64,000 nt of DNA from Octopus vulgaris (taxonomy: Eukaryota). The stretch's first letter is position 1. Every line of letters begins with the position of its first letter. The position numbers were made by a program, and so were the translations under genes. Positions 1,541 through 56,366 of this stretch are shown here, piece after piece. The DNA lies in contig OX597822.1 in assembly GCA_951406725.2 (NCBI GenBank), forward strand, positions 18,476,001-18,540,000. Reading direction: 5' to 3'. The notes beneath the pieces are model-generated. The model was not told where the DNA came from. It saw only the letters and a program-made list of their open reading frames with translations, and searched no databases.

Positions 1541-3288
1541 TACTGTCACCAAAAAGAGCTCAGTTTCCTGGCATCCAGAAATCCATGCACAAATGTTTCA
1601 TTGTGAGCAGGATTTGAGCTCAGGACACAAAGTATGAAATGTTTTCTCCAATAAGAAGAAAGAGGAATGTGTATATATGTGGCCATTAGAAAGCAGATCA
1701 GTTAAAGAGCAGCATCGAAAGCTTTCTGCAGGATCTGTGTTGTTAGTCCCAAATGCCTGAAATATGGGAAATGAGGATTTTAAATGAAAGTTTATTTTTA
1801 TTATTATTATCTTAAAGTATCAATAATTGTTTAGCCATTCTGATATCTGTTTTCTCACTTTGACTATCAATTTAATTATTTTGTATGTGTGTGTGCGTGC
1901 GTGCGTACTCATTTATATAAACATACATATATATATAAACACACACACATATATGTAAACACGCGTACACACATAGACAAATGTGTGTATGTATAGTTAT
2001 TTATGTGTCTGTATTTGAGAGTATATATATACATATATTTATATAAGTACATGCACACATCCAAATATGGATATATGTTTACACACACACACACCCCTAT
2101 TTAGTTCTCCAGTCGTCTATGATAATACCAATAAATTTCAAAGCCTGAACGTTAAGCTGATGGAGAAAATGTTAAAAATCTGTTATTACATAATCCTTTT
2201 TGCACAGGATTTTAAAGCTATAAAAATGCTTGATAACTCTCATTTATCACTGCATTTTATTTGTATTTTGTTATTGTGTCTTGTTTTGTTTTTTCTATTC
2301 TATTTATTTTTATTTGTTTTATATAAGTGTCTATTAATGGAAGAAGTCAGTTCTTTTGAAGTGGAGAGCATTACAGGGCATAAAAGCAGTTAACTACTTA
2401 GAACACTAGAGAAATGTTTGCTTTAAAAGAGGATGAAAAATATCTGGGTTTTTGTTTGTTTTATTCATTGAAATAAAAATAACATCTGACTTAGTGTTGT
2501 ACTCAATAAAATGCATGAATAGTTATATCAGTTCTCAAAATTATAACTTAAATATCTTCTCTTGAATAGTTTTTTACTTACTGTTTTATTTTTCGCTCTC
2601 TGCTCAGCTTGCTCTGGACATGTAAGCAAATAAGATATTTGCATATTGCTATTAAGAAGGTGATTTACAACAAATTGATGTTTCTAGCCATTTCTAAAAT
2701 GTTCTGGTGATATTTGGTTTTAGATGATTGTGTAAGGTTTCACTGTTAACAGAGTTAGGAACAGCAACAACAAAGGCTTTGCCACAAAACCTGTTTAAAG
2801 ACAGCAGCTAAGCCACCCTCGAAATGAAAAAGTGATGTGTAGGACAATGTAATCCCGAATAAGACAGTAAACTGACATGGTCATTGGAGGTCTGGTCACA
2901 ATATATATGTTTGTTGTGATCCCCTGTGGTCTGAATTCACTTCTCACTAAGGTCATCTTTGCTTTTAATCCTTTGTCTAATTGATTTTCTTCAGTCTTCC
3001 TCTCTCATCATTAGATGTGTTTTGTTGATGCTGCATGAAATGCCTTTACTCGAGTTGTTTAACATTGTGGCTATGGTGGAAACATACGTCACAGGACATA
3101 AATATTTTCCTTGCAAGTACAATCAATACACACACACATATATACCTCTCTGTGTGTACACATATGTTGATTACATAAATACACACATACAGGGTTGGTT
3201 ATGTGTGTGTATGCATGTATGTATATATATATAAGAAAAATAAAAACGGAAAATACGCACACTTACATGGTTATAGTATAATTTTTAA

Positions 3289-3325
3289 TGTATCGACCGG
3301 TTTCGCAATCGCTATTCATGATACA
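3289..3325 (-). ncRNA. Minimal type-I hammerhead ribozyme, A3-U8 core variant
   Basis: Reverse complement reads TGTATC-ATGAATA-GC GATT GC-GAA-ACCGGT-C-GATACA (helix I, core, helix II, GAA, palindromic helix III, GUC site, helix I'). Confidence 0.75.
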
Positions 3326-3600
3326 ATGTTTAATTTATATGAAAATATATTTTTTCTTAAGAAGAAAATGGGTCCATGTTGTTTATAATGAGATTCACAA
3401 GTGAATGATTTTACAAGTTGACAAGTAAAGGGAGGTAATTGTTTATTATTGTTATTGTTGTGTGTAGGGGAGATAACTGTTTAGGTTTTGGGTGGGGAAA
3501 AAATATGAGTACAGAAAGGAGACAGGTTTTAAAAAAAGGGGGCCTTGTTTAGTAGGGGATTTATGTACAGTGATGTAATATGTAAAAATATAAAAATTGG

Positions 3601-3708
3601 TTATGTGTGCTTATTCAGACGCGTTTTGTATTTTTCAATGAAAAATGTTTCTTTATTTAAACGTTCTAGTTGAGAGATTGTGTCTTTGCACTGGTAGAAA
3701 GGGAAGAC
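3601..3708 (-). pseudogene. C-terminal tail of a PLE GIY-YIG endonuclease
   Basis: Minus frame reads VFPFYQCKDTISQLERLNKETFFIEKYKTRLNKHT*, matching the R..E..FI.....LN end of GIY-YIG domains. Confidence 0.65.
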
Positions 3709-3782
3709 TGTGAATCTCATTATAAACAACATGGACCCATTTTCTTCTTAAGAAAAAATATATTTTCATATAAATTAAACAT

Positions 3783-3819
3783 TGTATCATGAATAGCGAT
3801 TGCGAAACCGGTCGATACA
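3783..3819 (+). ncRNA. Minimal type-I hammerhead ribozyme, A3-U8 core variant (inverted copy)
   Basis: tgtatc ATGAATA gc gatt gc GAA accggt C gataca, identical to the 3289-3325 copy. Confidence 0.75.
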
Positions 3820-5905
3820 TTAAAGATTATACTATAACCATGTAAGTGTGCGTAATTTCTGTTTTTAATTTTCTTATATACATTACAATCCACAACGTGG
3901 GGACAACCAAAATTCCTCTTTTCTGTTACTACTACTATATATATAATAATATTAGGGAGTATATCCAAACTTACAGGGAAAATTATCTCTAATTTAATTT
4001 AAATTTATATATATATATATATAATCGACTGTGCATACTCAGTGTATGTTTTGCTTCTGTGCTGGATGCTGTGGTTTAGAATGGTCGGAATGACTCCCTC
4101 AAAGTATTGTTTGTCAAAACACCTGAAAGTCTTAGACAAGTGAAACAACTCACCCCTAATCCCATTTAGGAGTGATAGATACTGATATTTTGCCAATTGT
4201 GTGGCTTGTCAACCTCACACCTGAATTCAACAGGCTGCAAACTAAATCATCAGTCTGTGACTCTGTTTACCATTCATGTAAAAACCATTTGTTGATATTC
4301 CACAGAAATGCATAAAAATAAATTCAATTAATGCTTGACTGTCATTGAAGCTGAGGGTTTGTTTTGTGGCTTCAATTTCAGTCCCCAACAATGTTCATCT
4401 GATCCCATCATCATTTAAGGCCCACTTACCAATGCTTGCATGTTCAGGCAGATTTTCCACGACCGGCTGCCCTTCCTGTCACTAGCTCTCACCTGTTTCA
4501 AAGTAGGGTCCTACTTTTCCCTTGCACAGAAATGCTTATCAGAGAAGACTGGAAGTGAACGACCTTAATAGTATGAGGATAATGCTCATTTACAACTGTT
4601 TCATAATGTCTGGAGAAAGGTACACACACACACACCTACCTACATGCATGCATACACACACACATACATACATGCAAGGAAGCAAGCATATGATGGGCTT
4701 CTTTTAGTTTCCATTTATTGAATCTATCCACAAGGCTTTGATCAGCCCGGGGCTGCAGTAGAAGATACTTGCCTAAGGTGCCTTGCTGTGGGAGTGAACC
4801 GAAGGCCATAGGGTTGGGAAGCAACCTTCTTAATTAATCACAGTTATACCATTAATAACTGATGCAACGCTTGGTTTTGTGAGTAAATACTGAAGTGAGA
4901 GTCTGGATAAGCTAAGGTTTTCAGTGAAGGAAATTAATGAGCTAATTTGCATATTACAAATTCAATCTGTAAGTGGAACAGTAAAAATGTGCAAGACTTT
5001 TCTTAAGTTCAAAATATGACATTGTTTCTGTTATCGACATTCCAACGATGAAGCTTTGTATCTTTGTTAGAACCCAGCACCTTTCTCAGAGAAAAGATTT
5101 CAAATTATTAGAAAACGAAGAGAACACACACACACATATAATGGTTTCTGTTTTGTATTAAATGTTAGAATACAAATAGTTATAAGCAAATAGGTTGAGT
5201 AATAATATGAAATAAATGCATTGGCATACAACCAAAAATGCATGTACACTCACACACAATGAACCAATGAGAAGTCTCTGTGTGTTGCTAACCCTACTGT
5301 ATGTGCGTGTGTGGGAGGTGAGAGAGAGTGGTAGGGGTCAGTTGGTAAGAGGTTGAAATGCTGGACCACTGGCAAACAACACAAGGCATAAATTCAAATC
5401 TTAACACTGATCGTACTTCTCAACAAGACACAAAGCAACATAACAATATACATCAGAATCCTTCACTATCACTGGATGAGCCAATTGTAAGCATTTGGAT
5501 GGTGTATATTAACCAACAATTGAAAATCCTACATGAAATTGCATTTATATATTGCATGTAGCCCTTTATTCTCCTGTAATTCTCTCATAGCAAGTGAAGC
5601 ATTTCGAGTACCTTACCTCTCTATGAATCTAAACTAAAATTTTTTCTCTACATTTCTTTTGTTGTCTTTAAAACATCTCCCTCTTATGATATTGTGTTGT
5701 TTTCCCACCAGATTCTCCTTCCAGATTCATCATCTTATTTTCGCAGAACTATTACAATGGTGTAAACATATTAGTTATTTGAGGGCTGCACTTTGAATGG
5801 AAACTCTTTGAGGCTTTAGTATCCATTCTGCTATTGAAAACACCTTCTGCCATTTCTCTTTATTACTTACTTCTCTTCTGATCCTGATCCATGCAGCCAG
5901 TGTGC

Positions 5906-16085: not shown

Positions 16086-16618
16086 TATAGATGTTTTCGA
16101 TCTAGTTTGGATTCGTTGCAATCAAAGTCGAATTTTTCAATTGGTGCTCAAGCCTTGAAAAGAGAGTTAAACTACATCAGCCGCAAGGGAATACATGTCT
16201 ATCTTATCTAACTCGTCCAGTAGAGATGACCAATTGATATCTGAAAAGTTCGATGAAATAACTCATGAACACTGCGATAGCTTCTGCCAAAAGATGTTTG
16301 TTATGTCGACCGGTCTCAACAAGGGGAGATAATAGAAAAAGAATCATTCGTTTATTATCTCCCCTTGTTCAGACTGGTCGACAACATAAATATGTTGAAA
16401 CATCTTTTGGTAGAAGCTATCGCAGTGTTCATGAGTTATTTCATCGAACTTTTCAGATATCAATTGGTCAGCTCTACTGGACGAGTTAGATAAGATAGAC
16501 ATGTATTCCCTTGCGGCTGATGTAGTTTAACTCTCTCTCTTTTTTTCAAGGCTTGAGCACCAATTGAAAAATTCAACTTTGATTGCAACGAATCCAAACT
16601 AGATCGAAAACATCTATA
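16086..16618. repeat. ~530-bp near-perfect palindrome (fold-back/MITE-like element)
   Basis: Arms ~16086-16333 and ~16353-16618 are reverse complements (tatagatgttttcgatctagtttgg...ccaaactagatcgaaaacatctata) with a ~20-nt loop, and the right end abuts (TA)n. Confidence 0.9.
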
Positions 16619-17824: not shown

Positions 17825-18014
17825 TTAACATATAATTGAACAAATTAAGAACACAGACCATTTGACAAAATAACCGCTATTTTCATATGCTACATGCTAA
17901 ACCACCAGAAGGAATTCTATTGGTCTCTTTCATCAAACCACTAAGTTATGGGGACGTAAACACACTAACATCAGTTGTCAAGTGATGGTGGAGGCACAAA
18001 CACAGACACACATA

Positions 18015-19643
18015 CAGTTGCGGCCAAAATGTTCAGAACGGCATTGTTTTCGTCAGAAAAGTAAGTATAAGTTTTTATCAAAGTTGTTTTATATTCTATA
18101 ATTTTCACAGACAATAAATACAATATTAATTGTTATTGTCTGAGATTTTGGTGTAATTTGAGAGGATAATACAAAAGTTATGGATGATTTAGTGATTTAC
18201 TGCAAAACCCATGGTGGCCAAAAGGATCAGAACGGTTGAAAAAATAACAAAATAATCAAAAATGACAGAGAATACTGGAATTATTTAATATTTAGTGTGA
18301 AGCCCATTAGCTTCAATCACACTCTGACATCTTTGACTGCATGAGGAAATTAAATTTTCAATTTCTTGCTGGGTGATCTTATTCCATTCTTCCTGAAGGG
18401 CATTCCATAATTGCTCAGTTGTTTTAGGATTTCTGGCTTTCGAACGTTCTCCTAGAATATTCCATACATTTTCAATAGGATTGAGATCTGGGCTTTGAGC
18501 AGGCTAATCCATAACAATAACCTTTTCATCCTTGAGGAAGTTCATGACCACCTTAGCCTTGTGACATGGGGCATTGTCCTGCATGAATATGGGTTGTCGC
18601 TTAGTTGAATTTCTCAGCACATGCAAGACATGATCTTTTACAAGTTGTTTATAAACTCCTGCATTTACCTTTCCATGTAATCGCACCAAAGGGCCCACAC
18701 CATCTCCAGATATCATTCCCCAAACCATGACACTTCCTCCATCGAATTTAACACTAGTCTTAAGGCATTTAGGCGACAATTTTTCACCTACTTTTCTACA
18801 AACGTACCTTTTCCCATCTGAGCCAAATAACATAAACTTAGATTCATCACTGAAATGCACCGTTTGCCATTTTTCTTGAAACCACAACACATGCTCGGTT
18901 GCAAAGGTAAGACGACACTTTTTATTCTTGGAGCTGATCAGTGGCTTCACTGCAGGTGCTCTTGCTTGTAGGTCATGTTCAACTAAATGACGAGACACAG
19001 TTTTTCAAGATAAAGTTTTCTTCAATACAATGCTTATTTTCTGAGAAACAGCAGCAGCAGTTTTAAATCTGTCCTTTTTAACCAACTTTACTATAGCACG
19101 ATCTTCTCTCTTGGTCGTTTTTCTTGGCCTACCTGCAAACTTTCTTGCTTCACACGAACCACAATTATTGTAGACCTTAAGAATACCGTGTACAACACTT
19201 TTTGACTTGTTAACAATCTTTGCAAAAGATCCAATACTTAAATTACCCTTCCTTTGAAGCTTAATAATCTGCTGACGAATTGGTTACGGAGTAAGTGGCA
19301 TTATATTAACAAAGTACACTGCAAATATTCTTACTAATGTTTAGTAAACGAACCGTCAGGTAAACAAATTCAAAACATTAGAGTTCGCCGGTTAAATATA
19401 CTAAAACACGGAGTAAAAGCAACTGTTCTGATCATTTTGGCTGCCATGGGTTTTGCAGTAAATCACTAAATCATCCATAACTTTTGTATTATCCTCTCAA
19501 ATTACACCAAAATCTCAGGCAATAACAAATAGTATCGTATTTATTGTCTGTGAAAATTATAGAATATAAAACAACTTTGATAAAAAATTATATCTACTTT
19601 TCTGACGAAAGCAATGCCGTTCTGAACATTTTGGCCGCCACTG
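18015..19643 (-). mobile_element. Tc1/mariner DNA transposon (DD34E, IR/DR-type long TIRs), 1629 bp
   Basis: TA|CAGTTGCGGCCAAAATGTTCAGAAC...GTTCTGAACATTTTGGCCGCCACTG|TA. The ~225-bp TIRs each carry two GGCCAAAA.G.TCAGAAC direct repeats. Confidence 0.95.
18285..19301 (-). pseudogene. Tc1 transposase, full-length frame with three in-frame stops
   Basis: GRPRKT, FSDESKF, GGSVMVWG, FMQDNAPCH...SPDLNPIE (D-34-E spacing), ending GLHTKY*. Confidence 0.93.
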
Positions 19644-20699
19644 TATATATATACAACAGGCTTCTTTCAGTTTCCATCTACCATATCCACTCACAAAGCT
19701 TTGGTCAGCCCAAGGCTATAGTAGAAGACACTTGCCCAAGGCACCTCACAGTGGGACTGAACCCAGAACCATGTGGTTGGTAAGCAAGCTACTTACCACA
19801 CTTTCAAGAAAGTATCATTTGTCAACTCTGACAATGAACTCCAACAACTGGATGGCTGTACTTGCTGATCCGACTCCTTTGTATTCATTGAGGTGGGAAT
19901 CTGCTGTGATTAAGATCAAACAAAAGAACCATACTCTACTCATCCTGACATCTGCAGACTCAAATAGCAAAATAAGTGCAACATCACCACACACACCTCC
20001 ACCACCAAATAACTATCATTCTTTCATTTCTTTCTGTCACCTTCCACTCCTCCCCACCAAATACACACAGAAATGCCTACATACCCCCAATCAACATTTT
20101 TTCATTGGTCAGAATTGGTAAACAACCCTCACTTAAACATCCATTAATGTTATATCACCTGAAGAAATGATTCCATGAAGTTTATCTCTCTGATACTGAT
20201 GGATACCAAAGACTGCACTGGAATCATCCCAGGAATACGGACTGTGATCTTAAGAAACATGATTTGTGGAAACGCACATATTGATGCATTAAAATATTCA
20301 TAAATTCCATCCAAGGATTATTATGGCTATTACTCTGTGCGTGTGTGTATGTGTGTGTACGTGTGTGTGCATATCCATCTATCTGTCTGTCTGTCTAAAA
20401 TAACCATCACTTGCAAGTATGACTTGCTATCATGTAGCATGCTTTCTCAAATTGCTTTAAATGTGCAAGTAGTCATGAGCAGAGACAGACATCTTCTCAG
20501 CCCTTCTCTCCTTCATTCAAAATCTTGATTGTGGTAGCTGAAGGAGTGAGAGAAAGGGCAAGGGCTGCACCAGCCCTTTGTTGGTGCTTTTTCTTAATCA
20601 ACCCAGAATGAATGAAAAACCAGTCAAACCTCACAAACCAGCACAAAAATTGTAACAGATTTTATCTGAATTTGATCTCAAGGACTTCAACCAGTTTTT

Positions 20700-26087: not shown

Positions 26088-26476
26088 GGTGCCGAGGGGG
26101 AAGAAGGGAGGGTGCTAAGGACCAGGAGGTCGCGTAGATTCCGGGCTCGTTTGAAGGAGGACAGGGGTGGGTTGGGGAAAATGGGGGTGGGTCGTAGAAT
26201 CGAGCTGGAGACGACGGAAGGCACGAAGTATCTTCCGACGAAGGGATAGAGTAGAGGGGTGGAAAAGGAGGGGAAAGGGGGTGCGGTTGGGGGTGGGTGA
26301 GTGGAAGGAGAAAGGGCGGTGGTGCGGTCGATGCGGCGAGTGCGGGCGAGGGCGTTCAAGACCAGGGTAGGTGGGTATCCTCGAAGCCTGAACAGGCGGG
26401 CCAGGTATTGAGACTGGGTCTCGAAATCCTGGTCGCGGCTGCACAAGCGTTGGAGATATATATATATATATATATA

Positions 26477-28670
26477 GCTAGAAATAGACTCCGACACATC
26501 TTAGATCAATACAACAAGTTCACTAAAAAACATAGTGAGGAGGGGTCCCACCAACTCAGCTCATCTGTTGACAAAGGCCTACAAAAACTAAAACAGCGAA
26601 TTAGGAACAAAGAATTAGTGTACCTCCTTGGCAGACTATCAGTAGATAGCCCACAGAACTATGTCCAGACCATGCAACAGCATATCAGTAGCATGAGAGA
26701 AGTTACACCACAGGAACATGAAAGAGTAGAAAAACTCCTCAATGCACACATGGGAATGTGGTGCAACATACTCCAACCTACAAAAAGGACGGCACACAAT
26801 TTCCAGGCATCCAACAATGAGTTTCCTACACTATACGGGTTATGCAAAGACCACAAACCCTACATAAACCCTGTCGCTGGGCCCCCAACCAGACCAGTTT
26901 GCAGAGCAAACATCTCCAGCAACTATAGACTGTTCTATTTCCTCTCACAAGTATTGCGACCTCTCATAGAGATGTCTCCGGATGTCTGTATGAGTACGGA
27001 AGATCTCCTCAGTAAAATAAGTACTTGCAACCACACCAACGACCTCACAGGTTGTATAGTGGGTAGTATGGATGTAATTTCACTCTACCCACCTATAGAC
27101 ATAGATTTTGCTGTGGAGAAATGCATTCAAGCAATCTGTGAGAGTGAAGTGGAATTCCGTAAGGTCAACACCAGGGAACTGGGCCTCCTCCTCAGACTAT
27201 GCTATGACAATAACTATTTAGATGACCATGACCTTAGTAAATTCTGCCCCACTTGCTCACAGAGAGGTAGACCACCCACCATCACTTCAGCGGTGAAGAA
27301 AAGCACCACAGAGCACTGGAGTGGCTGGACTGAACCCACCCCAAATCCTGAGAACAACAATCAGGTGAGGGAAATGACTGCATATGCAATAAGGGCCAGT
27401 GTAAAAAACCACCTTGAAAAACCACATGGTAAAGTTTAATAAAAAAACTATACATGCAGGTTCAAGGTGCAGCCATTGGTGTCGGTGTAGCTGGAGATGT
27501 GGCTGGCCTCTTCATGACATGGTGGGAAAGAAAATTTAAACAAATGTTAGCAGAACAGTCCACAACTCTTCTACTCTACAGTAGATATGTAGATGACATT
27601 AATATAATAGTTAGAACCAACTCTAGTGACGATAATGTAGAGACTGAGAAGAACGTAATGGAGAGCATCCAGCAAATAGCTAACTCCATTCACCAAAGTA
27701 TCAAGAAAACTATAGATTACCCCACTAAGAACCCTAACAATAGACTCCCTGTACTTAATACTGAACTTTGGTTAGAGACTGTGAACAATAGCGTGCAGCT
27801 CCTCCACTCTTATTACATGAAACCTGTAACTTCAAAATATGTTGTTCACAAGAACTCAGCTTTGTCACACAACAGGAAAATTAACATACTAATAGCAGAC
27901 CTATTAGAATAATGAACAATGTGTCCCCACTATACGAACCCTGTGAAATGAAGAAACATATACAGAACTTCATACACCGCATGCAGTTCTCTGGATATGA
28001 TCAGAAAGATAGGGTTTGTGTATACAGGGGGGGGGCTAGAAACAAATTAGATAACATTATACGTAATGATACCAGTGGTACCTGCCATAGATATAGAAAC
28101 AAAGAATGGAATAGAATACAAAGAGCTTGTGACAAAGCAAACAGGGCGAACATGTGGTATAAAACCAACAAATATCAAGTAGTGATGTTTGTAGAGGCCA
28201 CAGCCCTTGGAGAACTAGCCCGTAGATTTAGAAAAGCTCTGAAGGAGACCAAACTCAACATTAAAATTGCTGAAAAGCCAGGGAACTCCGTCAGATCACA
28301 ACTATGTAGGAGGTACCCGTTTAAGAATACCATATTCACCAATGATAACTGCATGGTATGTAGAATTAGCCCTGGTATTAACTGTAGAACTCGAAATGTA
28401 GTTTACAGCATAAGATGCATAGAAGGTGCTTGTAAGGACATGAACATGATGTACATAGGGGAGACGTCTAGGAGCATTGCGGAATGGATAAATGAACATC
28501 TAAGACAATATGACGACAGAAAACAGTCCTCCATACTCTACCAACATGCCAAAGACCACCATGGAGGTAATCTTATCCAAGCACCCAAAAGACCCAACAC
28601 TCAGACAAATACGGGAGTACGTCCTTATAAATGAAATTTCCCCAATATTAAATAGGAAATATACACAGTA
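26477..28670 (+). pseudogene. PLE reverse transcriptase + Zn-linker + GIY-YIG endonuclease (frameshifted)
   Basis: LYGLCKDHK...GPPTRPVC, GSMDVISLYP, QVQGAAIG, RYVDDI, C..C...C linker, NVVYSIRC...YIGETSRSI...EHL, ending ...LINEISPILNRK. Confidence 0.92.
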
Positions 28671-30383: not shown

Positions 30384-33103
30384 CTACTCCATGTTGTAGT
30401 CTACCATCCAACCGGGAGGGCGCCTTGTGCGTCGAGATCTTCTCAAGCTGGGCACCTCGTTCTCCCCCTCTCCACAATCGTCGTCTGTCGAAGCGATAAT
30501 CCTGCGAAGGTCCAAGACGTGTCGCGGCATTCCATCCACGGAGACGTTGTTTCTGGAATTGACCGCCGTCACCGTTCCTCTGCTCCATTGAGACGTACAG
30601 CGCGCCTTTGGTGGCTTAACCCAGACTTCCTCCCCTATTTTCATGCAAACAGGTCCCTTCTCTTCCTCGTGGCCCTCCGGCGCTTTGCTCGGGTGCCTCC
30701 ATTCATATTTAAATACAGCTCTCTGCGGCACAGATTCCTCAGCTTGTCCGGATCGGGGAGACAAGTTGTACCAAAAAACTGCTTCAAGTGGCGAAATGTG
30801 CCCTCTTTCCGCTATAGCCTTGACTGTCCGATGGTGCCTCACTATGATCCCGTTACCGCTCGGCCTATACGCTACTCTGAACAAGTGACGCACCTTCCAC
30901 CGATCAAGCATAACCCTCAATGCTTCCGAACGAAACGCCACCCCATTGTCCATCAGCAGTTCTTCCACGGAACCTCTCTCTAAAGATATCCCGTTCAAGA
31001 TCTGCGCGATCTCGTCAGCAGTGCCCGTTCTCAACTCCCTTCAAATGGCCAGCCGGCCCGGCCCGCAGTCGACCATGGAGAGATACATTCCCTGACGGTA
31101 GTGTGTCACATCCACAGCTAGCCTTTTCCAGTTGTGCTCCACCGAAAGGCTTCCCTGTTCATGCCCACACGGAGCAGGGTTGATGGACTGACACCTGTCG
31201 CAGCTCCCGACCACTTTCCGGATGCTTCCCCTAGTGACGTCAGCATCACTTTTCTTCGCCAGATACAGGGTCCTGTCCACACCCAGGTGATGCATAGCAT
31301 GCAGTCTCTTCAGTTCAGAGTCATCCAACCGACACGCTGCAGCTATCCCTTTCCGGGCCTCCTCCGGTTCTTCCAACCATGCTCTTTTCACCCTGGTCAG
31401 TGCGTCCGCCCTGTTTTTCTCCGAAGGCACTAAAACGACATTCAGCTTCAGTCCGAACTCGGCGATCAATTCACCTAGAACTCCTAGACGGCACTTCACT
31501 AACATCTCTGTGACACCTTTCGTCCGCACTCTCCTTTCACCAGTGATCACCGATCCTACCCAGCCAAGCACAGTGGCCGAATCCGTCCGGATTTCAATTG
31601 TGCGCAGCCCCCATTTCAGGGCCAAGTTCACTCCTTTCAGCACCGCGTCTAATTCGGTGACATTGATGTGGTTGAAGTCATCTGCTTTCCGAAGCCAGGC
31701 CGCGTCCTCCACCGCAGCGCCTTCGATTGCCAACACAACCTCTATCGCTATACTGCTAGCATCACACCAGATGGTCCCGCATTCCGTCTTGGGCACGTAC
31801 CAGTTCCCTCTGACCGGGTCTTCCGCTCTCGTCCTCTCTAGGATTTCCTGCATCATGGCCACCGTCCCTTCTCCCACTTTGTCACCCCAACTCTCCTCCT
31901 CCGCTCGTCTCTTGGTGTAACTGCACGCCGTGCGCAGCCATCCAGCGATCGGGTAGTGACCAACCAACTTCCCACACACTGAGAACAGCTCTCTCCTGCT
32001 GACGCTGGAACTCAGCTCTGGGATTTCATTCCCTCTCCAGAACACCAATTCACCCGATCTATCTCTTCGCAGCTTCAGCCCCAGCGCGGATCCTCCTTCC
32101 ATCGACTCCGGTGGCTTCGCAGTCAGTCCGAACTTCTTCAGATGTCTTACTACCTCGTTGGCTGGCACTACAGTTTCATCCACCAAAATGTAGTCAGTGT
32201 AGGAGCTGGTGACCTTTCTAATCTTGCCGTCTTTCCCTAGGACGGACTTAAGCACTGCCACCATGATCTTCGGAGCGGAATTCAGCCCGAAACCCAGCCT
32301 GGTTAAACAGTACGTCCGGCCTTTGTACCGCACCAGCTGATACCGCCACAGTTTGTCGCTCATATGGAGCTGCAAGTATGCCGATTTCAAGTCGACAATC
32401 GTCGCCACCTCACTCGACTGTCTCCACGCACGTAACGTCTTGCCACAAACGTCTGTCACCTCACCTCCCATGTGACACGATATATGCTGGTTTAGCTTCC
32501 TGAAGTCCAGCACCAGTCTGACTTTTCCCTTCGTAGGCTGCACCACCGCCATCAGGGGTAGCACTCCGCCCACTACCTCCTCCTTCCAAGGGACAAGGAC
32601 CGCTGACCATCGAACGCCGCCTGAAAGTCTTTGTCCTCGATGGTGTAAGCGGCGCAGTCCCTCGCGGGGCTCTGCTCTCTCTGGCGATCCTGACTCACAG
32701 TGCACGTTGCCCCCACGCTTCCGAACGTGATCTCATTTCCCACAACACTGACGCCACCGAGGCGGTTGATGGCGTCCATCCCCATCACCCCATCAACCCC
32801 ATCTATCATGCGTTCAGCCACAATTACCTGCAGCCTTAGCGTCGTGCCGTGCACCACTATCTCTACCTTGCTGCTGCCTCTGCAACGGATTTCGCTGCCG
32901 TCGACAATCCGGACGCTACTTGCCCCGTTCCATTTCTTTGTCACCCTTGAATTCACAAGGGTGGTCGTACAGCCCGTATCCACGAGGGCCTTAAACGTCT
33001 TCCCCTCGGCCTCCACGTCAATTAATGGCAGCGTCTCCAATAGCGCCTCTACTCGTTTGCGGGGAAAGTTTGAGAGGCAGCAACTGCCCCGCGGTCGTTT
33101 CCC
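30384..33103 (-). pseudogene. pol (protease, RT, RNase H, integrase) with a frameshift/deletion near 32600 and a stop at 31041
   Basis: ALVDTGC, VRLVLDFRKLN, DLKSAYLQ, RLGFGLNSAP, YTDYILV (degenerate YxDD), WCDASS, H..HLG...C..CQ, AVDVTH, LMDNG. Confidence 0.9.
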
Positions 33104-33810
33104 TGGTCACAATCACAGGCGATGTGCCCTGTCTGCCTGCATCGATAGCAAACGGGCTCCGGTTGCATACAGTCCCGCGCCATGTGCGACCCCTGACATT
33201 TAAAACACTGACCTGAGAACGGCCGCTGTCGTTGCATGGTAGGCTTCTGTACGTCTTTCTCCGGTCGTCGTCCATCTTTACGCACCTCCGTCACCACCAT
33301 TGCTATCGCCTTCCGCCCAGAGTGTCGCGTCAACACGCAGGCTTGAGTCACAAGTTCGCTCAGCGCCATCTTTTTAATCCCGGGCAATCGTTGTAGGTGA
33401 ATCCGTACATCGTCGGGGAACCCATTTACAAACGCCAGCCGCGCTGCTCTCTCCAGCCCTTCTCCTGTAAACCCAGCCAGCATCGCTAACCTTCTAACTT
33501 CTGCCGCGTACTCGTCCACCTGTCCTCCCGTCCATCTGATCGTACCCAGCTTAGCAAAAGCTGTGTATTCACACTCTGTGTAGGCATCCCGCAGACGTTG
33601 CTCTATTTTTTCCTCGCTCAGGCGTTCCTCCTCCTCCATCTCAAGATATAGCGTCAACCCACTCCCTTCTAAATACAGCGCCATAAGACTTGCCACATCG
33701 CTTATACCTTGCAGTCTTGCCACCAGCCTGATTTTACGAATCCAGGCCACTACATCGCCTTCACCATTAAAGGGTCTGATGATGTCGCTGGCGATCCTGA
33801 TTTTCGCTGC
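33049..33810 (-). pseudogene. gag with two CCHC zinc knuckles
   Basis: CFKCQGSHMARDC and CYRCRQTGHIACDC in ORF 33049..33963(-). The upstream part of that ORF is LTR sequence. Confidence 0.88.
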
Positions 33811-33839
33811 CGACTTATATGGAGCGCCGAAATAGCTTG

Positions 33840-34114
33840 TGGTGTAAGCGAGAGATTCGAAATAAAGGCACCTACCTTCTCTTCGCTTTGATGGAGGCCC
33901 TTCAGCGGTAACGGATCCTTCGACACAGCCCGACCTGAACGCTAGAGATAGCAGCTGCTTCACCCAACCTTAACAACGTGAATCACCCGTCTTAACCCCT
34001 CGACGACCTGACTTGAAAGGCAGAAATCCCTGCTCACTGCGCGTGCGTCTCGGCTGCCCCTTCCGGTCAGCCCCAACTTCCGATCAGCTCCCCAGCTGCT
34101 GATGTCATCCCTCA
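33840..34114 (-). repeat. 5' LTR
   Basis: Direct repeat of 30077-30352. Confidence 0.9.
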
Positions 34115-34624: not shown

Positions 34625-35960
34625 ACTATTTTCAAGGACAACGTTGAGTGTGGGTTTGTATTCTTGTATACAGACAGCTTCAGTGACCTGTCTCAGCATT
34701 ACATCCGTGGGATGTGTGGATAAGATGTTTAATTTAATCCCTTGTGGCAGTCTACAGCATGCTGATAGAAGATGGAGTTTGGTTTCTTTGCAATGTAGTT
34801 GTCCAGGTGTTCTTTGAACCTATCATTGATACTCCTTAGAAGTCTCACCTATGTATGACTCTGGACTAGTCACGCAAGCTCTTTCTCGGCACTTAATTTG
34901 GTATACAGTGTTCTTGGTTTTACAGTTCACATGTGGGTTTGTAGAACATACTGCACAATTATTTTGACACATGATTTTATCAAATGGATATGATCTACAT
35001 AATACAGATTTGATAGTCCTACCTGTCTTTTCTACAACTTTGATCTTAAGGCCAGTTGTACGCAGGATTTTCTTAGATGCCTTACTTAATTCGTTCTTAG
35101 GTGTGGCGACAACAAATATTACACTGTGAAATTTTTTGTTATCATACCAAGTATTGGTTTTATTTCTTTTGTTGGTGTCCCTCTCTAACCTATTCCAGAG
35201 CTTGTTGCGGTATAGGGGGCATATACCGTTTTCGTCATCTCTTAGAATGCGTTCGAATCTTGTTTTTGCTCCTTTGTACACTCTGATTCTATCGTATTGT
35301 GTGTATCCGGGACGTTGCATTCGGAATATGAAGTGCTGGATGTGTTGTTGTTCTTGTGGTTGGCATAGTGGGGATACATTCCTCAGTACTCTAAGTCTGC
35401 CACCAGGATGTTGATCTTGGTAGTACTCACCATCGCTGAGTCACTACGGTTTACAATAGTGTGAGTGGAGTATACAGGGTTTAACAGTCCCATTAGCCAT
35501 AGTATTTTCTATCTACAGCTCAGTATCTAGGACAGGTAATCTATTACTGGGGTGTAGTCTACGGTAACTTTTATACTGCTATGGATAGAGTCAGCTATGT
35601 GTTGTATAGCTGTCATCACCTGTTCTTCATTTAGTAGAGAGTCTATATCTGTGTCTGTATTACTATTACATTTCACGACAAGGTTAATGTCGTCAACGTC
35701 AACATATCAAGAGTACATAGCTAAGTGGATGTTACGGGTCACTAGGCACTGTTTAAACTGTCTGTCCCACCATGAAGAGGTTAGTAACATCACCGGCGAT
35801 CCCTACTCCAATAGCACCGCCTTTCACCTGTTTATACAGTTTGTTGTTAAACTTAAAAATATGGGTTTTAAGCGTAGTTCTAATAGCATGTGCAACAGTA
35901 GTTTTGATGTCGTGTGCCATACCAGCGTTCACAGTTGGTATCTTTACCTCAGCATACAAA
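34625..35960 (-). pseudogene. Penelope-like element B RT (C-half) + GIY-YIG, frameshifted, related to element A
   Basis: YKQVKGGAIGVGIAGDV, DDINL, CAVC...C linker, NTVYQIKC...YIGETSK, RFKEHL...EAVCIQEYKPTLN. Confidence 0.9.
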
Positions 35961-36404
35961 AAGAAGTCTGTCTTGTGTGTGTGTGTGTGTGTGTGTGTGC
36001 CCTCTTGTCTTGACATGGTTTGATGGTTGTTATTGAGCATCGTAGTCTTACAAGTTGCGTCGTTTATTTCCAGTCTTTCTGGAAATAAAGTCTGGCAAAG
36101 GGAATATATTACCTTACTTGGAAACAGGAAAGACCTCTGGCCAGAGAAAGACTCCTTTGACAAACTCTGACTGACCCATGTGAGCGTGGAAATGTACATG
36201 TTGATGGTGATGATGATGATTATATATTTATGCCTTTAGGTATGTATGTGTGTGTGTGTGTGTGTGTGAGAGTGTTACCAATAAAATAATTATGAGACTG
36301 AAATAAATTCTCTTGTTAATATACTTTTGTAAGCTCTATGAAAGAGTTAGCATGGCAGATGTCCAGTGACTGAAACCATAAAAGAATAGATACGTATATA
36401 TATA

Positions 36405-37165: not shown

Positions 37166-37546
37166 GCAATATTAAATCTCTGAGCAAGAATTAAACAGTA
37201 GCAGCACGGAATTGTGAAGTATATTTGCCACCTAAATGTAGCGGCCCCATAGGGGACAATGTTACTGTTGTTTATAGTCCCAGGAGGACACCTTCTCCAG
37301 CTTGCTAATGACACACTGTGTGTGTCTTATGAGTATTTGCTGGTGACTATCATACACTGAAGATGGGTTACTACCCAGAAACCCGGGTCTGCATGTATCA
37401 CTTAAGGCTAGAGATGGGAATGATGATTTCCCTTCACAAATACTCATAAGACACAGACAGTGTGTCGTTAGCAAGCTGAAGGAGATGTCCTCCTGGGGCT
37501 ATAAACAATAGTAACATTGTTTCCACATTTAGGTGGCAAATATACT
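37166..37546 (+). mobile_element. Non-coding fold-back element with a central HHR, in (TA)n (PLE pseudo-LTR-type)
   Basis: Inverted arms 37218-37339 and 37437-37546, an extra tail 37166-37217, and (TA)n on both sides. Confidence 0.8.
37351..37395 (+). ncRNA. Type-I hammerhead ribozyme, canonical core
   Basis: CATACA-CTGAAGA-TGGGT TACT ACCCA-GAA-ACCCGGGT-C-TGCATG. GUC site, with one mismatch in helix I. Confidence 0.88.
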
Positions 37547-42654: not shown

Positions 42655-45290
42655 GATTGAAGTTATTATGTCTACCAGAGGTTTGTACTGTCTGTCAAGT
42701 CATAACAAGGACCTCAGACTAAACAGTACTTTATGCAATATGTATGCAGTTCCAAGTAATGCTGACTTTTGCAATACATCTAGATTGTAGGGTATTTCTA
42801 AAGTTTTCAGATGTTCTTTTTCAGATTGGGTGGTATCGAACCCAATGCTCCGAAGACAATAGGAATAACCTTTATGTTCTAGTGATCTCAATTCTGAGGC
42901 CTCCATATTTACCAACTTTTTCTCTTTCTCTCATGATGATATGTTGATCTCCTGGCACTACCACGTCAATTATGAGGCACTCTTGTTTGTCCTTTTTAAA
43001 GATTACTATATCCAGGCTTCAGTCCTCTAATACCTTGTCTGTCTGGAAATCAACATCCCAGAGGATTTCCACATTCCCCTTTTCATCCATTACTTTTTCT
43101 TGTGCATGTTGGTACCCGTAACTTCATATCCATACTTATGGCATAGTAGCTAGTAGAGGTTTGGGGCTACCTTGTCATGTCTACACTTGTACTCTTTCTG
43201 TGGAAGACTTTTACAAGCACTAACAATGTGAGTCACACTTTCGACCCTCTTCCCACACATTCTGCAGAGGTTTGTTGCACTGAGTTGGTATTCAATGCCC
43301 AGTCCTGGGCAGTGATGATTAGGTTTTCAGTATTCTTTTTTAGTCATCCTTGTTAAGCCACCTCCATGATGCTTCCTAGTCTTTTAAGTTGTTAGTTTCA
43401 TGATGGTCTTGTTTGCTGTTTACCAAATATTCTGCCATGTTTCTTCTTTCATTGTTGATGCACTCTTGTATGCTAATCAGCCCACGCCCACCTTTACCCC
43501 TCTTCATGTAGAGCCTGTGTACATTCGCCTTAGGGTGGAGGGTACCATACATTGCCATTGTCTTTTGGGTAGTGCGACTGAGTTGGTCAATCTCCACTTG
43601 TGTCCATTTCAGGATGGGAGCATTATAGTGGACTACAGTTGATGGCAGTCACGAGGTTCTTGGAGTTGAGTTTTGATTTCAAGAGAAGTTTGAGGTGCTT
43701 GAAATATGCAGTGATGGTCTTGTCTTTCGTTTCTCTATGCAAGATATTGTCCAGCTCAAGGATCCCAAGATTCTTGTACCCATCATCATCCGGGTCTTAC
43801 TCCATGACAGGACCATGTGAGCATAACAACAGAAGATGTCATTGCACAGGTATCAAAACTGCCAAACTGGAAAGCGGCAGGACCAGACGGAATTCTCTTT
43901 CCATTTGGCAATTCTATGCCCCTACAATTTACTCTTTTCCCCCACTACAAAGTAAGCACCACACACTTCAAGATACCAAATTCCACCCCTATATCCTTGC
44001 TGCACATTTGCACAGTTTCATCCAGCCTTTCCACTTCAGGCTCTGTTTTTGCAAACAGTTTGAAATCATCCCTGAAGAGAAGGTGGTTGAGATGAGGTCC
44101 ATTCTTTCTCAGCTCATAGTGCACATTGACTTTGCACAGGACTGTGGGATCAGGGCTATAACAAATAACAGATACCTCTTTTGATTGTTATCTCAACTAA
44201 ATGCTGGTTGTTACAGGAAAGACATATTTTTCAACTAGGCATGCTGTTCTTAATCTGTGCACACACATTCTCAGCTTTTCGACACATGTTGAGTGTTTCC
44301 AAAATCCATGAATGTGGCAACATGTTATAAGCTCTTTTGAAGTCTATCCAGGCTATGCATAAATTTTTATGGTACCATTTAAAGTTCTTCATTATAACCT
44401 TGTCTATCCCAAGGTGGTTCTTCGTGCCCTTCGATCCTTTTCAGCATCCCTTTTGTTCTACTGGAAGTAGATTGTTTTCCCCAAGGAACAGATATATTTT
44501 CCCTGTGAGGATACCTGTTAATACTTTCTGTAAGAGGTTAAGACAAGCAATGGGTCGGTAATTGCCAGTTTCATTGCCTTTTGACCGATCTTTCATTAAC
44601 AAGTTGTCTTTCCTCAGGAACTGCACCACTCTATAGGCGATTGTCTAATTGCAACACAATTCTCTTGTGTATTGACCTAAACCACTTGAGCCAGTAGCCT
44701 TGAATTCCGTCTGGTCCTGCCGCTTTCCAGTTTGGCAGTTTTGATACCTGTGCAATGACATCTTCTGTTGTTATGCTCACATGGTCCTGTCATGGAGTTT
44801 CCAGGTGATGGAGTTCAGATTTCATGGAATGAATCCATTCAGCACCATGGTAGTAGGAAACTTCTTGCCTCCAGCTGTTATTCCAAAATTGGTGGCTTTC
44901 TTCTGCCGCATTGTCATGTCTCCATTTGTATTCGCACTGTGTGAGCTTACAGCACTCACTAACAATATGGCTTATACTTTCTCCCTTCTCAGAAAACATC
45001 CTCCCTTGTGGTGAGTCAGTGCTTTTATTAATGAGATATTTGGAGTAGTTTGTTCTGAGACCTTGTTCTTGAGCATTGCACACTAATGCCTCTGTAGCCA
45101 TTGTCAGGTTCTATTCCAATCAATTTCATCTTTATTCTACAAGAACTGACTGTGCATTTTTCTTGTCCCACCAAATTTTCTTCATCTACTCTCTCTGGCC
45201 TTTCTTAAATTGTATTGGATCTATGGCTTTGTTTACTTTTAAGGTTCCCTGCATTTTCACTGCTTCAATAATTTCTTCTTTACTCCCCTT
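42655..45290 (-). mobile_element. Dong/R4 LINE, decayed and rearranged (same family as 9545-10925)
   Basis: NYRPIACLN...EQKGC, WKAAGPDG, LHPKANVHRLY and LQKSALLGTA motifs. Confidence 0.85.
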
Positions 45291-45311: not shown

Positions 45312-47232
45312 CAGTAGTTTTATTTTTATAGCGTGCTTTCACTTCACTACCGAGCGCAGCTCTGTGTGCCTTGGGTATGTGCTGTGATTTGTTGTGATGC
45401 TCTGATGGTTATTGTATGGAAAGTGTTCTGCGTAGGATGTGTGCAGTGCCTAGTAGTGCAATTTTCTGTATGTTATATGTGTTTGTAAGTCCTGGTGTTT
45501 TTGTTATGTATTTGTCTGAATATTTTTTTATCATGCCTAATGCACCTACTATGATAGGAATTGTTTCTGTTTTCAGGTTCCACATTCTAGTTACCTCTAT
45601 TTCCAGGTCTTTGTATTTTGAGAGTTTCTCCATTTCTTTTAGAGACACGTTGTCATCTGCCGGTATTGATACATCAATTAGAAAGCATTTTTTTCTTCAT
45701 GATCTCTGACAACTATATCTGGTCTGTTGGCCTTAATTTCTCTATCTGTGTGTATCGGCATATCCCAGAGTATGGTTGCTTTCTCGTTTTCTGTGACCTT
45801 TTCTGGTGTGTGCCTATACCATCTTTTTTCTGTTGTTATTCCATAATGTTGGCATAGCTTCCAATGTATGTAGGTTCCAACTCTGTCATGTCTGTGAATA
45901 TATTCCTTCTTAGCCAGGACTGGGCAGCTAGAGATAATATGATTTATTGTTTCTTGTCCATCTCCACATATTCTGCAGTTACTTGTAATATTTCTTTTCA
46001 TTACATGTTTTTGGTAATTTCTGGTGGGGAGGCTTTGGTCTTGTGCTGCAATTAAAAATCCCTCTGTCTCTGCTTTGAGTCCTGAGCTTCTCAACCATTG
46101 CTGGGATTTTTCTTTGTCTATTTCTTTTGCGTTTAGTTTAGTGCAGTATTTACCATGAAGGGGCTTTTCTTGCCATCGTTTTATCATGGCTCGTTGCTGT
46201 TCTATTTTTAGTTTGGATTTCATTTGTTTTATAGCTTCTTCTTCTTCTTCTTCTTTGTGTTTATTAGGTGGTATGATTTCTTGTTTGTATTTGTCAGCTC
46301 CCTTAAATACTGAGAACAGTTTTTTGTTTTGCTCGTGTTTTGCTGCTATCTGGATCAGTTTTCCTTCCTTCTGAAGTCGGTATTTTTGCAGTCCTATGGT
46401 GGTTATTTTATAGTAGTTTTCCAGCTGTATAAGGCCTCTACCACCTTCTATACGTTGTATATATAGTCTTTCTATGTCAGATTTTGGGTGATGCATCCTA
46501 GATCCTGTCAGTATTTTTCTTGTTTTCCTATCTATTTTGGACAGTTCATTTCGTGTCCAGTTAAGGATATTGTAGCTGTAACTTATAACTGGGACAGCTA
46601 AAGTGTTGATACCTATTATCTTGTTTTTAGCATTGAGCTCTGTTTTTAGTATTGATCTAACTCGTCTATAATATTCTTTTTTTATTTTCTCTTTCATTTG
46701 TGTGTGTTGTGTCTTATCTAGTTCATGGATTCCTAAGTATTTGTAAGTTTGGCTTTGGTCTAATTCTTTTATTTCATTGGTTTTATCTAGTGTGATGTTG
46801 TTGCTCTTAACTAGTTTTCCTCTTTTCATGGTTACTTTGGCGCATTTTTCTAATCCAAATTTCATATCTATTTCTTTGGTAAATCCATGAACTGTCTTTA
46901 ATAGTGTTTCCAGCTGTTTATCATTTGCAGCGTATAGTTTTAGGTCATCCATATATAAAAGGTGGCTGATCGTTTTGCCGTAACATTTATATCCGCATCC
47001 AGTTCTATTTAGCATATCAGATAGAGGTGACAGTGCCAAGCAGAAAAGGAGTGGAGAGAGCGTGTCTCCCTGGAATATTCCTCTTCTAATGGGGATGTCT
47101 TTGGTTTTCATGAGTCCCTCTTTTGTTTGGAGGTGTAGGACTGTTTGCCATTTATTCATAGAGTGCTCTATGAATTTTATGATTGTTGGTGCTACTTTGT
47201 TAATGGCTAGTGTTTCGAGGATTCATGTGTGG
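45312..47232 (-). mobile_element. Dong/R4-clade LINE, relatively young and 5'-truncated, inserted in (TAA)n
   Basis: Flanked by (TTA)n at 45293-45311 and 47233-47308, with a long ORF 45678..47159. Confidence 0.93.
45409..47230 (-). pseudogene. RT + CCHC + restriction-like endonuclease, one frameshift near 45690
   Basis: RRGIFQGDTLSPLLF, HLLYMDDLK, CRICG...HIISSC, RHDRV, RPDIV...IDVSIP, KLSKYKDL, PIIVGALG. Confidence 0.93.
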
Positions 47233-55112: not shown

Positions 55113-55138
55113 TATATATATAAATATATATATATATA

Positions 55139-55602
55139 ACTTTATAAAAATAGGGTAAAGTAAAATAATTTACTTTACCACACACCGAGCTTTTTAGAAA
55201 TAGCAGCCAAAAATTTGGCTATTTCTTCTATTGCAAGAAAAAGTCTCCCAGACAATGTATACTCAGAAATAACTCACATAGGTATAAGGGAAAAACAACA
55301 AAAGATCACATCCATACGAGATACCCGAGGACAAGCCTGTTTCTGGATTAGTTGATTAAACGCCAACATTTCCTTCATCAGCTCAGAGATTTCTTCTGAT
55401 TTAGATTTGAAAGTACTAAGAATCAAACATACCCGTCCGATATATGAAACACCGGACAAACCAAAGCTCGGTGTGTGGTAAAGTAAATTATTTTACTTTA
55501 CCCTATTTTTATAAAGTAATATTTCAAATATACCGTAAATGGTCATTTTACATACCGAACACTGCTCGGTCGAATTGATTAATTCTACCCTTTTTTATTG
55601 AC
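55139..55602 (-). mobile_element. Non-coding fold-back element with a central HHR, in (TA)n (PLE pseudo-LTR-type)
   Basis: Perfect 55-bp inverted arms 55139-55193 and 55463-55517, a tail 55518-55602, and (TA)n on both sides. Confidence 0.8.
55325..55386 (-). ncRNA. Type-I hammerhead ribozyme, canonical core, long helix II
   Basis: Reverse complement CTGAG-CTGATGA-AGGAAATGTTGGCGTTTAATCAACTAATCCA-GAA-ACAGGCTTGT-C-CTCGG. Confidence 0.82.

Positions 55603-56316: not shown

Positions 56317-56366
<50 letters not shown>

What the first reader, a model, noticed from the sequence alone, without database searches (positions are those of the whole stretch)
3231..4005. A3-U8 hammerhead tied directly to a PLE GIY-YIG tail, duplicated in inverted orientation
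The minus strand reads GIY-YIG C-terminus (ERLNKETFFIEKYKTRLN*), then 3' UTR, then the HHR (ATGAATA core, 2-3 bp helix II, GUC site), then (TA)n. An inverted copy of the last ~170 bp plus a ~125-bp tail sits upstream. Both HHR copies are identical, so A3-U8 came from the template rather than from later decay. This element links the non-coding fold-back elements in the window to PLEs.
Basis: partly seen in the sequence, partly recalled or inferred. Interest (0 to 1): 0.7.

Follow-up and report, generated by a model that had tools for sequence, protein, structure and literature searches.

The report
Penelope-element hammerhead with A-U core pair
This is a short, dead, fold-back insertion of a very abundant Penelope-like jumping gene whose layout is textbook, but whose small hammerhead RNA motif carries an unusual A-U pair in place of the standard C-G pair of the catalytic core, as a family trait, and would be a new natural variant of the ribozyme if it is shown to cut.

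Summary
Largely confirmed, with corrections. Minus strand 3714-3225 is the 5'-truncated end of an endonuclease-bearing, Neptune-like Penelope element: the last 37 codons of a GIY-YIG domain (ending RLNKHT*, not RLN*), a 3' UTR and a type I hammerhead motif, ending in (TA)n. A 175-nt inverted copy (3709-3883) joins it head to head through a 6-nt microhomology. The tail is about 60 nt (3884-3945), not 125; 3946-4005 behaves as a separate, deeper repeat. Contigs from 4 of 4 runs show a high-copy family that continues upstream into more endonuclease sequence, with no A3-to-C reversion at 5% or more and a compensatory stem I change. A3-U8 is therefore inherited, not decay. Related or neighbouring elements carry C3-G8, U3-A8 and G3-C8, so all four Watson-Crick pairs occur. 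The architecture is in print; natural A3-U8 in a Penelope element was not found in my searches, though two key papers could not be read. The full-length parent was not recovered and cleavage is untested; one mutagenesis study found only the G-C swap rescued. New variant of a known kind; interest 0.42.

The parts
3220..3233 (.). (TA)n target tract at the 3' end of the main copy; overlaps the element's own terminal TATA letters
   Evidence: sequence
3225..3714 (-). Main copy: 5'-truncated 3' end of a Neptune-like Penelope element (EN C-terminus, 3' UTR / pseudo-LTR, hammerhead motif)
3601..3714 (-). Last 37 codons of the GIY-YIG endonuclease plus stop (FTVFPFYQ...ERLNKETFFIEKYKTRLNKHT*)
   Evidence: phmmer E 6.8e-6 to P0001, which carries Pfam GIY-YIG; aligns to the last residues of full-length RT+EN ORFs; best of 1586 window frames against the A2 profile, E 8.3e-11
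3400..3600 (-). Unduplicated part of the 3' UTR
   Evidence: contigs join 3400 to 3710 on opposite strands in 4 of 4 runs
3289..3325 (-). Type I hammerhead motif, A3-U8 core, main copy; predicted cut after C17 at 3295
3709..3714 (.). 6-nt microhomology at the head-to-head junction: belongs both to the EN frame and to the inverted arm
   Evidence: arm starts at 3709; family contigs match to 3714 and then leave (loose end in 4 of 4 runs); random pairs of points share 6 nt or more in 0.3% of draws
3709..3883 (+). Inverted 5'-truncated copy of the last 175 nt
3783..3819 (+). Type I hammerhead motif, A3-U8 core, inverted copy; predicted cut after C17 at 3813
3884..3945 (+). One-sided tail of the element (about 52 nt plus TATA letters), present on the inverted copy only
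   Evidence: contigs run from the hammerhead to 3945 in X1 and X3 and from 3822 to 3945 in X10; loose ends behind 3945 are (TA)n then varied sequence
3946..4005 (.). Separate 60-nt, far deeper repeat lodged in the same (TA)n tract; probably not part of this element's tail
   Evidence: depth 575,116 at 3963 against 20,278 at 3942 in X1; loose ends before 3936 and 3943 are (TA)n/(TAA)n
4006..4024 (.). (TA)n tract at the right boundary
   Evidence: sequence

Best explanation
This is a dead, 5'-truncated, head-to-head insertion of a high-copy endonuclease-bearing Penelope-like retroelement (likely of the Neptune group) into a (TA)n tract, and its pseudo-LTR hammerhead motif carries an inherited A3-U8 core pair that likely still allows slow self-cleavage as a dimer in the parent RNA. 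Shown: the anatomy, the family, the inherited A3-U8, the stem I compensatory change, the 6-nt junction overlap and the one-sided tail. Inferred insertion route: the endonuclease nicks both strands of (TA)n; each 3' end primes reverse transcription on a pseudo-LTR copy of the RNA, one at the UAUAUA near 3880 and one about 60 nt further on at the UAUAUA near 3940 (which gives the tail); both cDNAs stop early (490 and about 235 nt) and are joined through the 6-nt microhomology. Inferred ribozyme step: two motifs in a tandem transcript pair through their ACCGGU palindromes to build stem III, the 3-8 pair forms as A-U, and the RNA is cut after C17. This genomic copy cannot do so in cis, because its two motifs lie on opposite strands. 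Odds: identity of the element about 0.93; A3-U8 a family trait about 0.93; measurable cleavage about 0.55-0.6; the two-primer route about 0.5.
For: EN homology; relatives have RT motifs, the CX4CxxC linker and a C-terminal EN. Loose end behind 3714 in 39, 52, 28 and 11 contigs of the four runs reads, by hand, EKCAGNIKPN in frame before FTV, matching the EN of P0001 and P0002. Joint 3400 to 3710 in 4 of 4 runs. All A-to-C differences counted in each run (2, 2, 2, 1) are accounted for by rows 3894 and 4080, so C3 is under 5%. Majority letters change G3784 to A and C3818 to T, the two sides of one stem I pair; the third listed change in the motif is in loop II. The 3-8 letters pair in every PLE-type motif seen: C-G in L001, U-A in L004 (both directly behind a related EN), G-C at 56813/56546, C-G at 55381. 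The 3-8 pair is a feature of the active conformation (PMC3884650, passages). With the family-majority letters the double-hammerhead fold is the minimum-energy dimer (-15.9 kcal/mol). Inverted 5'-truncated copy, tail and (TA)n bias are described for PLEs (PMC8557442; PMC3846280); an anole PLE protein nicks and extends both strands and starts at two internal RNA sites that define the tail (PMC11167929).
Against: No full-length parent was recovered: no genome is held, and two protein searches with this family's own peptide found no long relative, so RT and the Neptune linker are shown only for relatives 26-60% identical over the peptide. One search printed 40 of 137 difference rows, so minor variants at U8 or A3-to-G/T are not excluded, and an empty core among 14 listed rows in 175 nt is not significant alone (expected about 1.2 rows in 15 positions, my arithmetic). 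In saturation double mutagenesis of a type III hammerhead only the G-C swap rescued the 3-8 pair (PMC9901934, passages). With this copy's own letters a competing dimer is 2.5 kcal/mol more stable and the stem III duplex has probability 0.01. Hammerhead mutants did not impair insertion in vitro, and priming there was not homology-guided. The tail is longer than the 30-40 nt described. Rfam gave no match at gathering thresholds.
Confidence: 0.72

Rival explanations
1. Same element, but the motif is a catalytically dead relic: A3-U8 was fixed in a master copy by drift and spread with it, and the hairpin is kept, if at all, as a protein-binding or 3'-end signal.
For: Only the G-C swap rescued activity in PMC9901934; hammerhead cleavage was not needed for insertion in vitro; Naiad elements thrive without canonical hammerheads; competing fold in this copy; core conservation is not significant by itself.
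Against: Three separate non-canonical cores (A-U, G-C, U-A) all keep a Watson-Crick pair, about 0.02 if each had a chance near 0.28 (my arithmetic; three cases only, not a designed sample); the other 11 core positions, G10.1-C11.1 and the palindrome are intact; stem I covaries. U3-A8 was also not rescued in PMC9901934 yet is natural and reported active in vitro (PMC3088659).
Confidence: 0.2
2. The whole fold-back is itself the mobile unit, a non-autonomous MITE-like or retrozyme-like element with terminal inverted repeats.
For: Long inverted arms with hammerheads; several fold-backs in the window.
Against: Family contigs leave the window's sequence at 3714 and go on into endonuclease sequence instead of crossing the junction; arms end asymmetrically with a tail. 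No second copy of this junction was listed.
Confidence: 0.04
3. A3-U8 is local decay of a C3-G8 core, made identical in both arms by gene conversion or by copying one arm from the other.
For: Identity of two arms of one insertion does not by itself prove the state of the parent.
Against: C3 is under 5% among family contigs in 4 of 4 runs, and the arms differ at 5 other sites, three of which are private to the plus arm against the family letter.
Confidence: 0.02
4. Sub-question: the tail really is 125 nt, with an internal (TA)n that breaks contigs, and 3946-4005 is a terminal piece shared with other families.
For: The two pieces are contiguous in the window; microsatellites break short-word contigs; only part of the contig tables was printed.
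Against: About 28-fold depth step between 3942 and 3963; loose ends on both sides show (TA)n with other neighbours; two listed contigs run 19 and 23 letters past 3945 without matching 3946 onward.
Confidence: 0.15

Closest known systems
Insertion units of EN+ Penelope-like elements (Penelope/Poseidon, Neptune, Nematis, Hydra): Craig et al. 2021 PMC8557442; Arkhipova et al. 2013 PMC3846280
   Same: 5' truncation, adjacent inverted 5'-truncated copy, one-sided tail, hammerhead in the pseudo-LTR, (TA)n target, microhomology at a 5' junction
   Different: Tail about 52-62 nt against 30-40 nt described; no palindrome at the inverted junction; parent ORF not recovered here
Minimal type I hammerheads of metazoan PLEs (Cervera and de la Pena 2014, PMC4209133), including the U3-A8 variant and a truncated element with a second motif on the opposite strand (their Fig. 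S4A)
   Same: Type I, palindromic stem III suited to dimer formation, G10.1-C11.1, 3' UTR position
   Different: A3-U8 core (0 of 56 motifs in their Fig. S3 have A3: 53 C3, 3 U3; 0 of 34 rows in Craig File S2, but those searches asked for CUGANGA-type cores); helix II of only 2 bp; no extra base between positions 9 and 10.1
Natural hammerhead core variants (Perreault et al. 2011, PMC3088659)
   Same: Covariation of the 3-8 pair; stem II of as few as two pairs
   Different: The passages read report U3-A8 only; here the pair is purine-pyrimidine inverted and is the majority state of a high-copy animal family
Poseidon element of Anolis (Frangieh et al. 2024, PMC11167929)
   Same: Both-strand nicking and two internal start sites would explain the fold-back and the tail
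   Different: There priming is not homology-guided and the hammerhead overlaps the start codon; here both ends stop in TATA letters matching the target (inferred) and the core is A3-U8

Membership tests
EN+ Penelope-like element | GIY-YIG endonuclease at the C-terminal end of the ORF | tested here: met
   upstream continuation
EN+ Penelope-like element | Telomerase-like RT in the same ORF | tested here: inconclusive
   present in relatives P0006-P0008, P0010, P0012; parent not recovered
EN+ Penelope-like element | Hammerhead motif in the pseudo-LTR behind the stop codon | tested here: met
   A3 lies 281 nt behind the stop
EN+ Penelope-like element | Adjacent inverted 5'-truncated copy | tested here: met
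EN+ Penelope-like element | One-sided tail of 30-40 nt | tested here: inconclusive
   one-sided tail present but about 52-62 nt
EN+ Penelope-like element | Target-site duplication | not testable with these tools
   both ends lie in (TA)n; no empty site was examined
Neptune clade | CX2-5CxxC linker before the EN, CCHH in the EN, (TA)n bias | tested here: inconclusive
   linker and CCHH-type motifs in 10 of 10 relatives checked but outside the part held in the window; (TA)n met; no tree built, Nematis shares the linker
Type I minimal hammerhead | Consensus letters C3 and G8 | tested here: not met
   A3 and U8
Type I minimal hammerhead | Watson-Crick pair between positions 3 and 8 | tested here: met
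   A-U here; C-G, U-A, G-C in related or neighbouring elements
Type I minimal hammerhead | U4 G5 A6 A9, G12 A13 A14, A15.1-U16.1, H17, G10.1-C11.1 | tested here: met
Type I minimal hammerhead | Stem I, helix II, palindromic stem III able to form a dimer | tested here: inconclusive
   elements present; target dimer is the minimum-energy fold with majority letters but not with this copy's letters
Type I minimal hammerhead | Rfam hammerhead model at gathering score | tested here: not met
   0 matches in the window
Type I minimal hammerhead | Self-cleavage after H17 | not testable with these tools
   needs an in vitro assay

The most novel reading that the evidence does not exclude
Neptune-like elements of this host have evolved hammerheads with an inverted purine-3 / pyrimidine-8 core (A3-U8 in this family, G3-C8 in a neighbour, joined by a G-U wobble path), these cleave as dimers, and with C3-G8 and U3-A8 relatives they supply all four Watson-Crick states of a pair that exists only in the active fold: direct evolutionary evidence that PLE hammerheads are selected for cleavage, and a sign that CUGANGA-based surveys have missed thousands of active ribozymes and wrongly scored some PLE families as ribozyme-less.
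Probability: 0.35. Interest if true: 0.65.

Novelty: new variant of a known kind. Interest (0 to 1): 0.42.

Why it matters
Whether the small hammerheads of Penelope-like elements do anything is open: the papers read call their function unclear and show that insertion works in vitro without cleavage. The 3-8 pair belongs to the active conformation, so a family that has swapped both letters and kept the pair, beside relatives with the other three pairings, gives a cheap and sharp test. It also shows a blind spot of standard search patterns. The insertion layout itself is ordinary.

Tried and rejected
Rfam: 0 matches. Pfam on the 37-residue peptide: 0 families. Word-indexed protein searches for a full-length parent: nothing. 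Exact DNA pattern of this hammerhead in metagenome contigs: 0 matches. P0003 is a fibronectin-repeat protein and was dropped as chance. ESM Atlas: top hits unnamed; one cluster with a GIY-YIG family at 0.87, a lead only. Of 5 related loci, L002 ends too early, and L003 and L005 show no hammerhead behind the EN; only L001 and L004 are informative, and a G-C hit inside an L001 ORF and a U-C hit at window 21742 were set aside as chance. No RNA holder is on record; X10 is only guessed to be RNA. A possible intron (GTAAGT at 3842, no AG until 3954) showed no spliced joint: untested. Literature: 10 searches; 'A3-U8', 'A3U8', 'C3A'+'G8U' and 'positions 3 and 8' gave no relevant paper. PMC5785218 (Lunse 2017) and PMC1986816 (Przybilski and Hammann 2007) are not held and could bear directly on novelty and activity. 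A Naiad origin (N-terminal EN) was rejected because the stop, 3' UTR and terminus follow the EN directly.
Full report
OBSERVATION. The arms 3225-3399 and 3709-3883 are reverse complements at 170 of 175 positions. Each holds the same 37-nt type I hammerhead motif, at 3325-3289 (-) and 3783-3819 (+): stem I of 6 bp, core ATGAATA, helix II of 2 bp with a 4-nt loop, GAAA, the palindrome ACCGGT, and GUC with C17 at 3813 and 3295. Such a motif arose in 0 of 20,000 shuffles of the 376-nt 3' UTR, a loose one in 13 of 20,000; over the whole window a strict motif arose in 2 of 30 shuffles, so position carries part of the argument. Rfam found nothing at gathering thresholds.

THE PROTEIN. The 37-residue peptide (3714-3604) has no Pfam hit but gave 3 hits among 1.84 billion proteins: P0001 (E 6.8e-6, Pfam GIY-YIG), P0002 (a degenerate close relative) and P0003 (fibronectin repeats, dropped). 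P0001 brought 23 longer relatives of 45 candidates, two named from molluscs (Argonauta hians, Crassostrea virginica). The peptide aligns with the last residues of most of these, and 10 of 10 checked carry the RT motif Y/FLDD, a CX3-4CxxC linker and a C-terminal EN. A profile of P0001 and P0005-P0009 ranks this frame first of 1586 window frames (E 8.3e-11; partly circular because P0001 was found with the peptide). Craig et al. 2021 (PMC8557442; passages and supplement parts) tie that linker to the Neptune and Nematis clades. No tree was built, so 'Neptune-like' is a likeness of relatives. No full-length parent was found. That the host looks like an octopus is my recalled impression and rests on no call.

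THE FAMILY. Twenty of 24 listed runs hold part of the stretch. I laid 4 of them on 3400-4300 at 80% likeness and 5% share. Depth over the element is hundreds to thousands of times that of the unique flank (for example 173,773 against 43.7 in X1; the tool warns that this is no copy number). In 4 of 4 runs a joint links 3400 to 3710 on opposite strands, which is the parent's order of 3' UTR then hammerhead arm. In 4 of 4 runs contigs (39, 52, 28, 11) match to 3714 and then leave; their loose end reads by hand EKCAGNIKPN in frame before FTV, like the EN of P0001 and P0002. So homologous copies do have upstream PLE ORF, and 3709-3714 belongs to both sides of the inversion: a 6-nt microhomology, reached by 0.3% of random point pairs.

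THE CORE. One search counts 2, 2, 2 and 1 places with an A-to-C difference in the four runs; rows 3894 and 4080 account for all, so C3 is below 5% everywhere. None of the 40 printed rows (of 137) falls on a core position. Three fall in the motif: G3784A and C3818T, the two sides of one stem I pair and each the majority letter, and T3801A in loop II. Limits: unprinted rows could hold minor variants at U8 or A3-to-G/T; the two stem I changes were not seen on one contig; an empty core is not significant at this row density; copies under 80% alike are invisible. Three of the five arm differences (3825, 3855, 3860) are private to the plus arm against the family letter, so the arms have aged separately while sharing A3-U8.

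RELATIVES. Of 5 metagenome loci with a related EN, L001 has a C3-G8 motif with the same ACCGGT palindrome behind its EN, and L004 a U3-A8 motif followed by the same TTTTCTTATATATA end as here; L002 is too short and L003 and L005 show none. A scan not requiring 3-8 pairing found in the window a second fold-back with G3-C8 motifs in both arms (56813 +, 56546 -) and one unpaired hit at 21742 taken as chance; a looser scan added a C3-G8 motif at 55381 (-) in a third fold-back and an unpaired hit at 21638. All four Watson-Crick states thus occur. These elements share no alignable sequence with this one, so the link is by analogy; the 56.8-kb element does share an 11-nt motif downstream of its hammerhead with L001.

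THE TAIL. Contigs run from the hammerhead to 3945 in X1 and X3 and from 3822 to 3945 in X10, then pass into (TA)n and varied sequence. Depth steps from 20,278 at 3942 to 575,116 at 3963 in X1, and contigs of 3946-4005 are preceded by (TA)n or (TAA)n. The tail is about 52-62 nt and 3946-4005 is most likely another repeat that shares the target; a microsatellite-broken longer tail is not fully excluded.

MECHANISM. Shown: both 3' ends point outward and end in TATA letters within (TA)n; the 5' ends meet at a microhomology; one end is about 60 nt longer. Inferred: both nicked target strands primed reverse transcription on pseudo-LTR copies at two start sites, and the two short cDNAs were joined. 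Frangieh et al. 2024 (PMC11167929; parts 1-2 of 4 read) show both-strand nicking and extension and two internal start sites defining the tail, but without primer-template homology, and show that hammerhead cleavage needs the protein and is dispensable for insertion in vitro. Arkhipova et al. 2013 (PMC3846280; passages) propose self-priming for palindromic junctions; this junction has no palindrome. For the ribozyme, Cervera and de la Pena 2014 (PMC4209133; parts 1-2 of 4 and supplement parts 1-2 of 3) and the review PMC6765202 (passages) describe slow, dimer-dependent cleavage. Folding gives a mixed answer: with this copy's letters the double hammerhead (-18.1 kcal/mol) loses to a competing dimer (-20.6), while with majority letters it is the minimum (-15.9) (core contacts are not modelled). 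The 3-8 pair marks the active fold (PMC3884650; passages). Against activity, Roberts et al. 2023 (PMC9901934; passages; supplement listed, not read) found only the G-C swap rescued; for it, U3-A8 is natural and active (PMC3088659; passages), and I recall, without having read it here, that Przybilski and Hammann 2007 found every Watson-Crick pair cleavage-competent, with context-dependent preference for pyrimidine-3.

NOVELTY. The layout is in print, including a truncated PLE with a second hammerhead on the opposite strand. A3 occurs in 0 of 56 motifs in Cervera's Fig. S3 and 0 of 34 rows in Craig's File S2, but those searches asked for CUGANGA-type cores. Searches for 'A3-U8', 'A3U8', 'C3A'+'G8U' and 'positions 3 and 8' gave nothing relevant. 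Also seen: the 2026 retrozyme preprint (part 1 of 5 and passages; supplements closed), PMC7229834, PMC6155905, PMC8490949 and PMC13481778 (passages), none with A3-U8 in the passages shown. Lunse 2017 and Przybilski 2007 were not held and may already cover it.

VERDICT. A real, ordinary PLE fold-back insertion with one unusual and well-supported trait: a family-wide A3-U8 core within a set of relatives showing all four pairings. New variant of a known kind; interest 0.42; 0.65 if pairing-dependent cleavage is shown (probability 0.35 for the full novel case).

Noticed in passing
window 56365-56957: Fold-back (arms 56421-56571 / 56788-56938, 97% alike) in (TA)n with identical G3-C8 hammerhead motifs in both arms (position 3 at 56813 +, 56546 -; stem I 7 bp, helix II 5 bp, ATAT palindrome), a nested 74-nt palindrome at 56758-56831, and a one-sided tail of about 55 nt at 56365-56420; shares an 11-nt downstream motif with L001.
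   Followed up: partly
window 55125-55532: Fold-back with 70-nt arms and a canonical C3-G8 hammerhead-like motif on the minus strand at 55381, between (TA)n tracts.
   Followed up: partly
window 16086-16618 and 37218-37546: Near-perfect palindromes (553 nt at 90%; about 330 nt at 72%), the first ending in (TA)n; no intact hammerhead found by the scans.
   Followed up: partly
window 3946-4005: 60-nt repeat flanked by (TA)n, the deepest part of the laid stretch in all four runs; may be a solo tail or end of another microsatellite-targeting family.
   Followed up: partly
window 3842-3954 (+): GTAAGT donor-like site 28 nt behind the predicted cut, followed by pyrimidine tracts and no AG for over 100 nt; possible PLE 5' UTR intron; no spliced joint seen. 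An ATTAAA hexamer follows stem I, where L001 and L004 have AATAAA.
   Followed up: partly
window 26255-28634 (+) and 34823-36235 (-): Two decayed, frameshifted PLE-type RT/EN ORFs of other families.
   Followed up: no
window 18012-19646; 30384-33969 (-); 45678-47222 (-); 43799-44798: Element with 227-nt inverted ends around a Tc1/mariner-like transposase frame; a Gypsy-like gag/protease/RT/integrase set; a LINE-type RT frame; a perfect 97-nt inverted repeat 806 nt apart (names from recall of the motifs).
   Followed up: no
window 4080-4215: A further moderately deep repeat in the right flank.
   Followed up: no
L004:3245 and L001:2086: Near full-length Neptune-like elements with U3-A8 and C3-G8 hammerheads; both have a long extra frame upstream of the RT-EN frame, and L001 is a circularly permuted unit.
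   Followed up: partly
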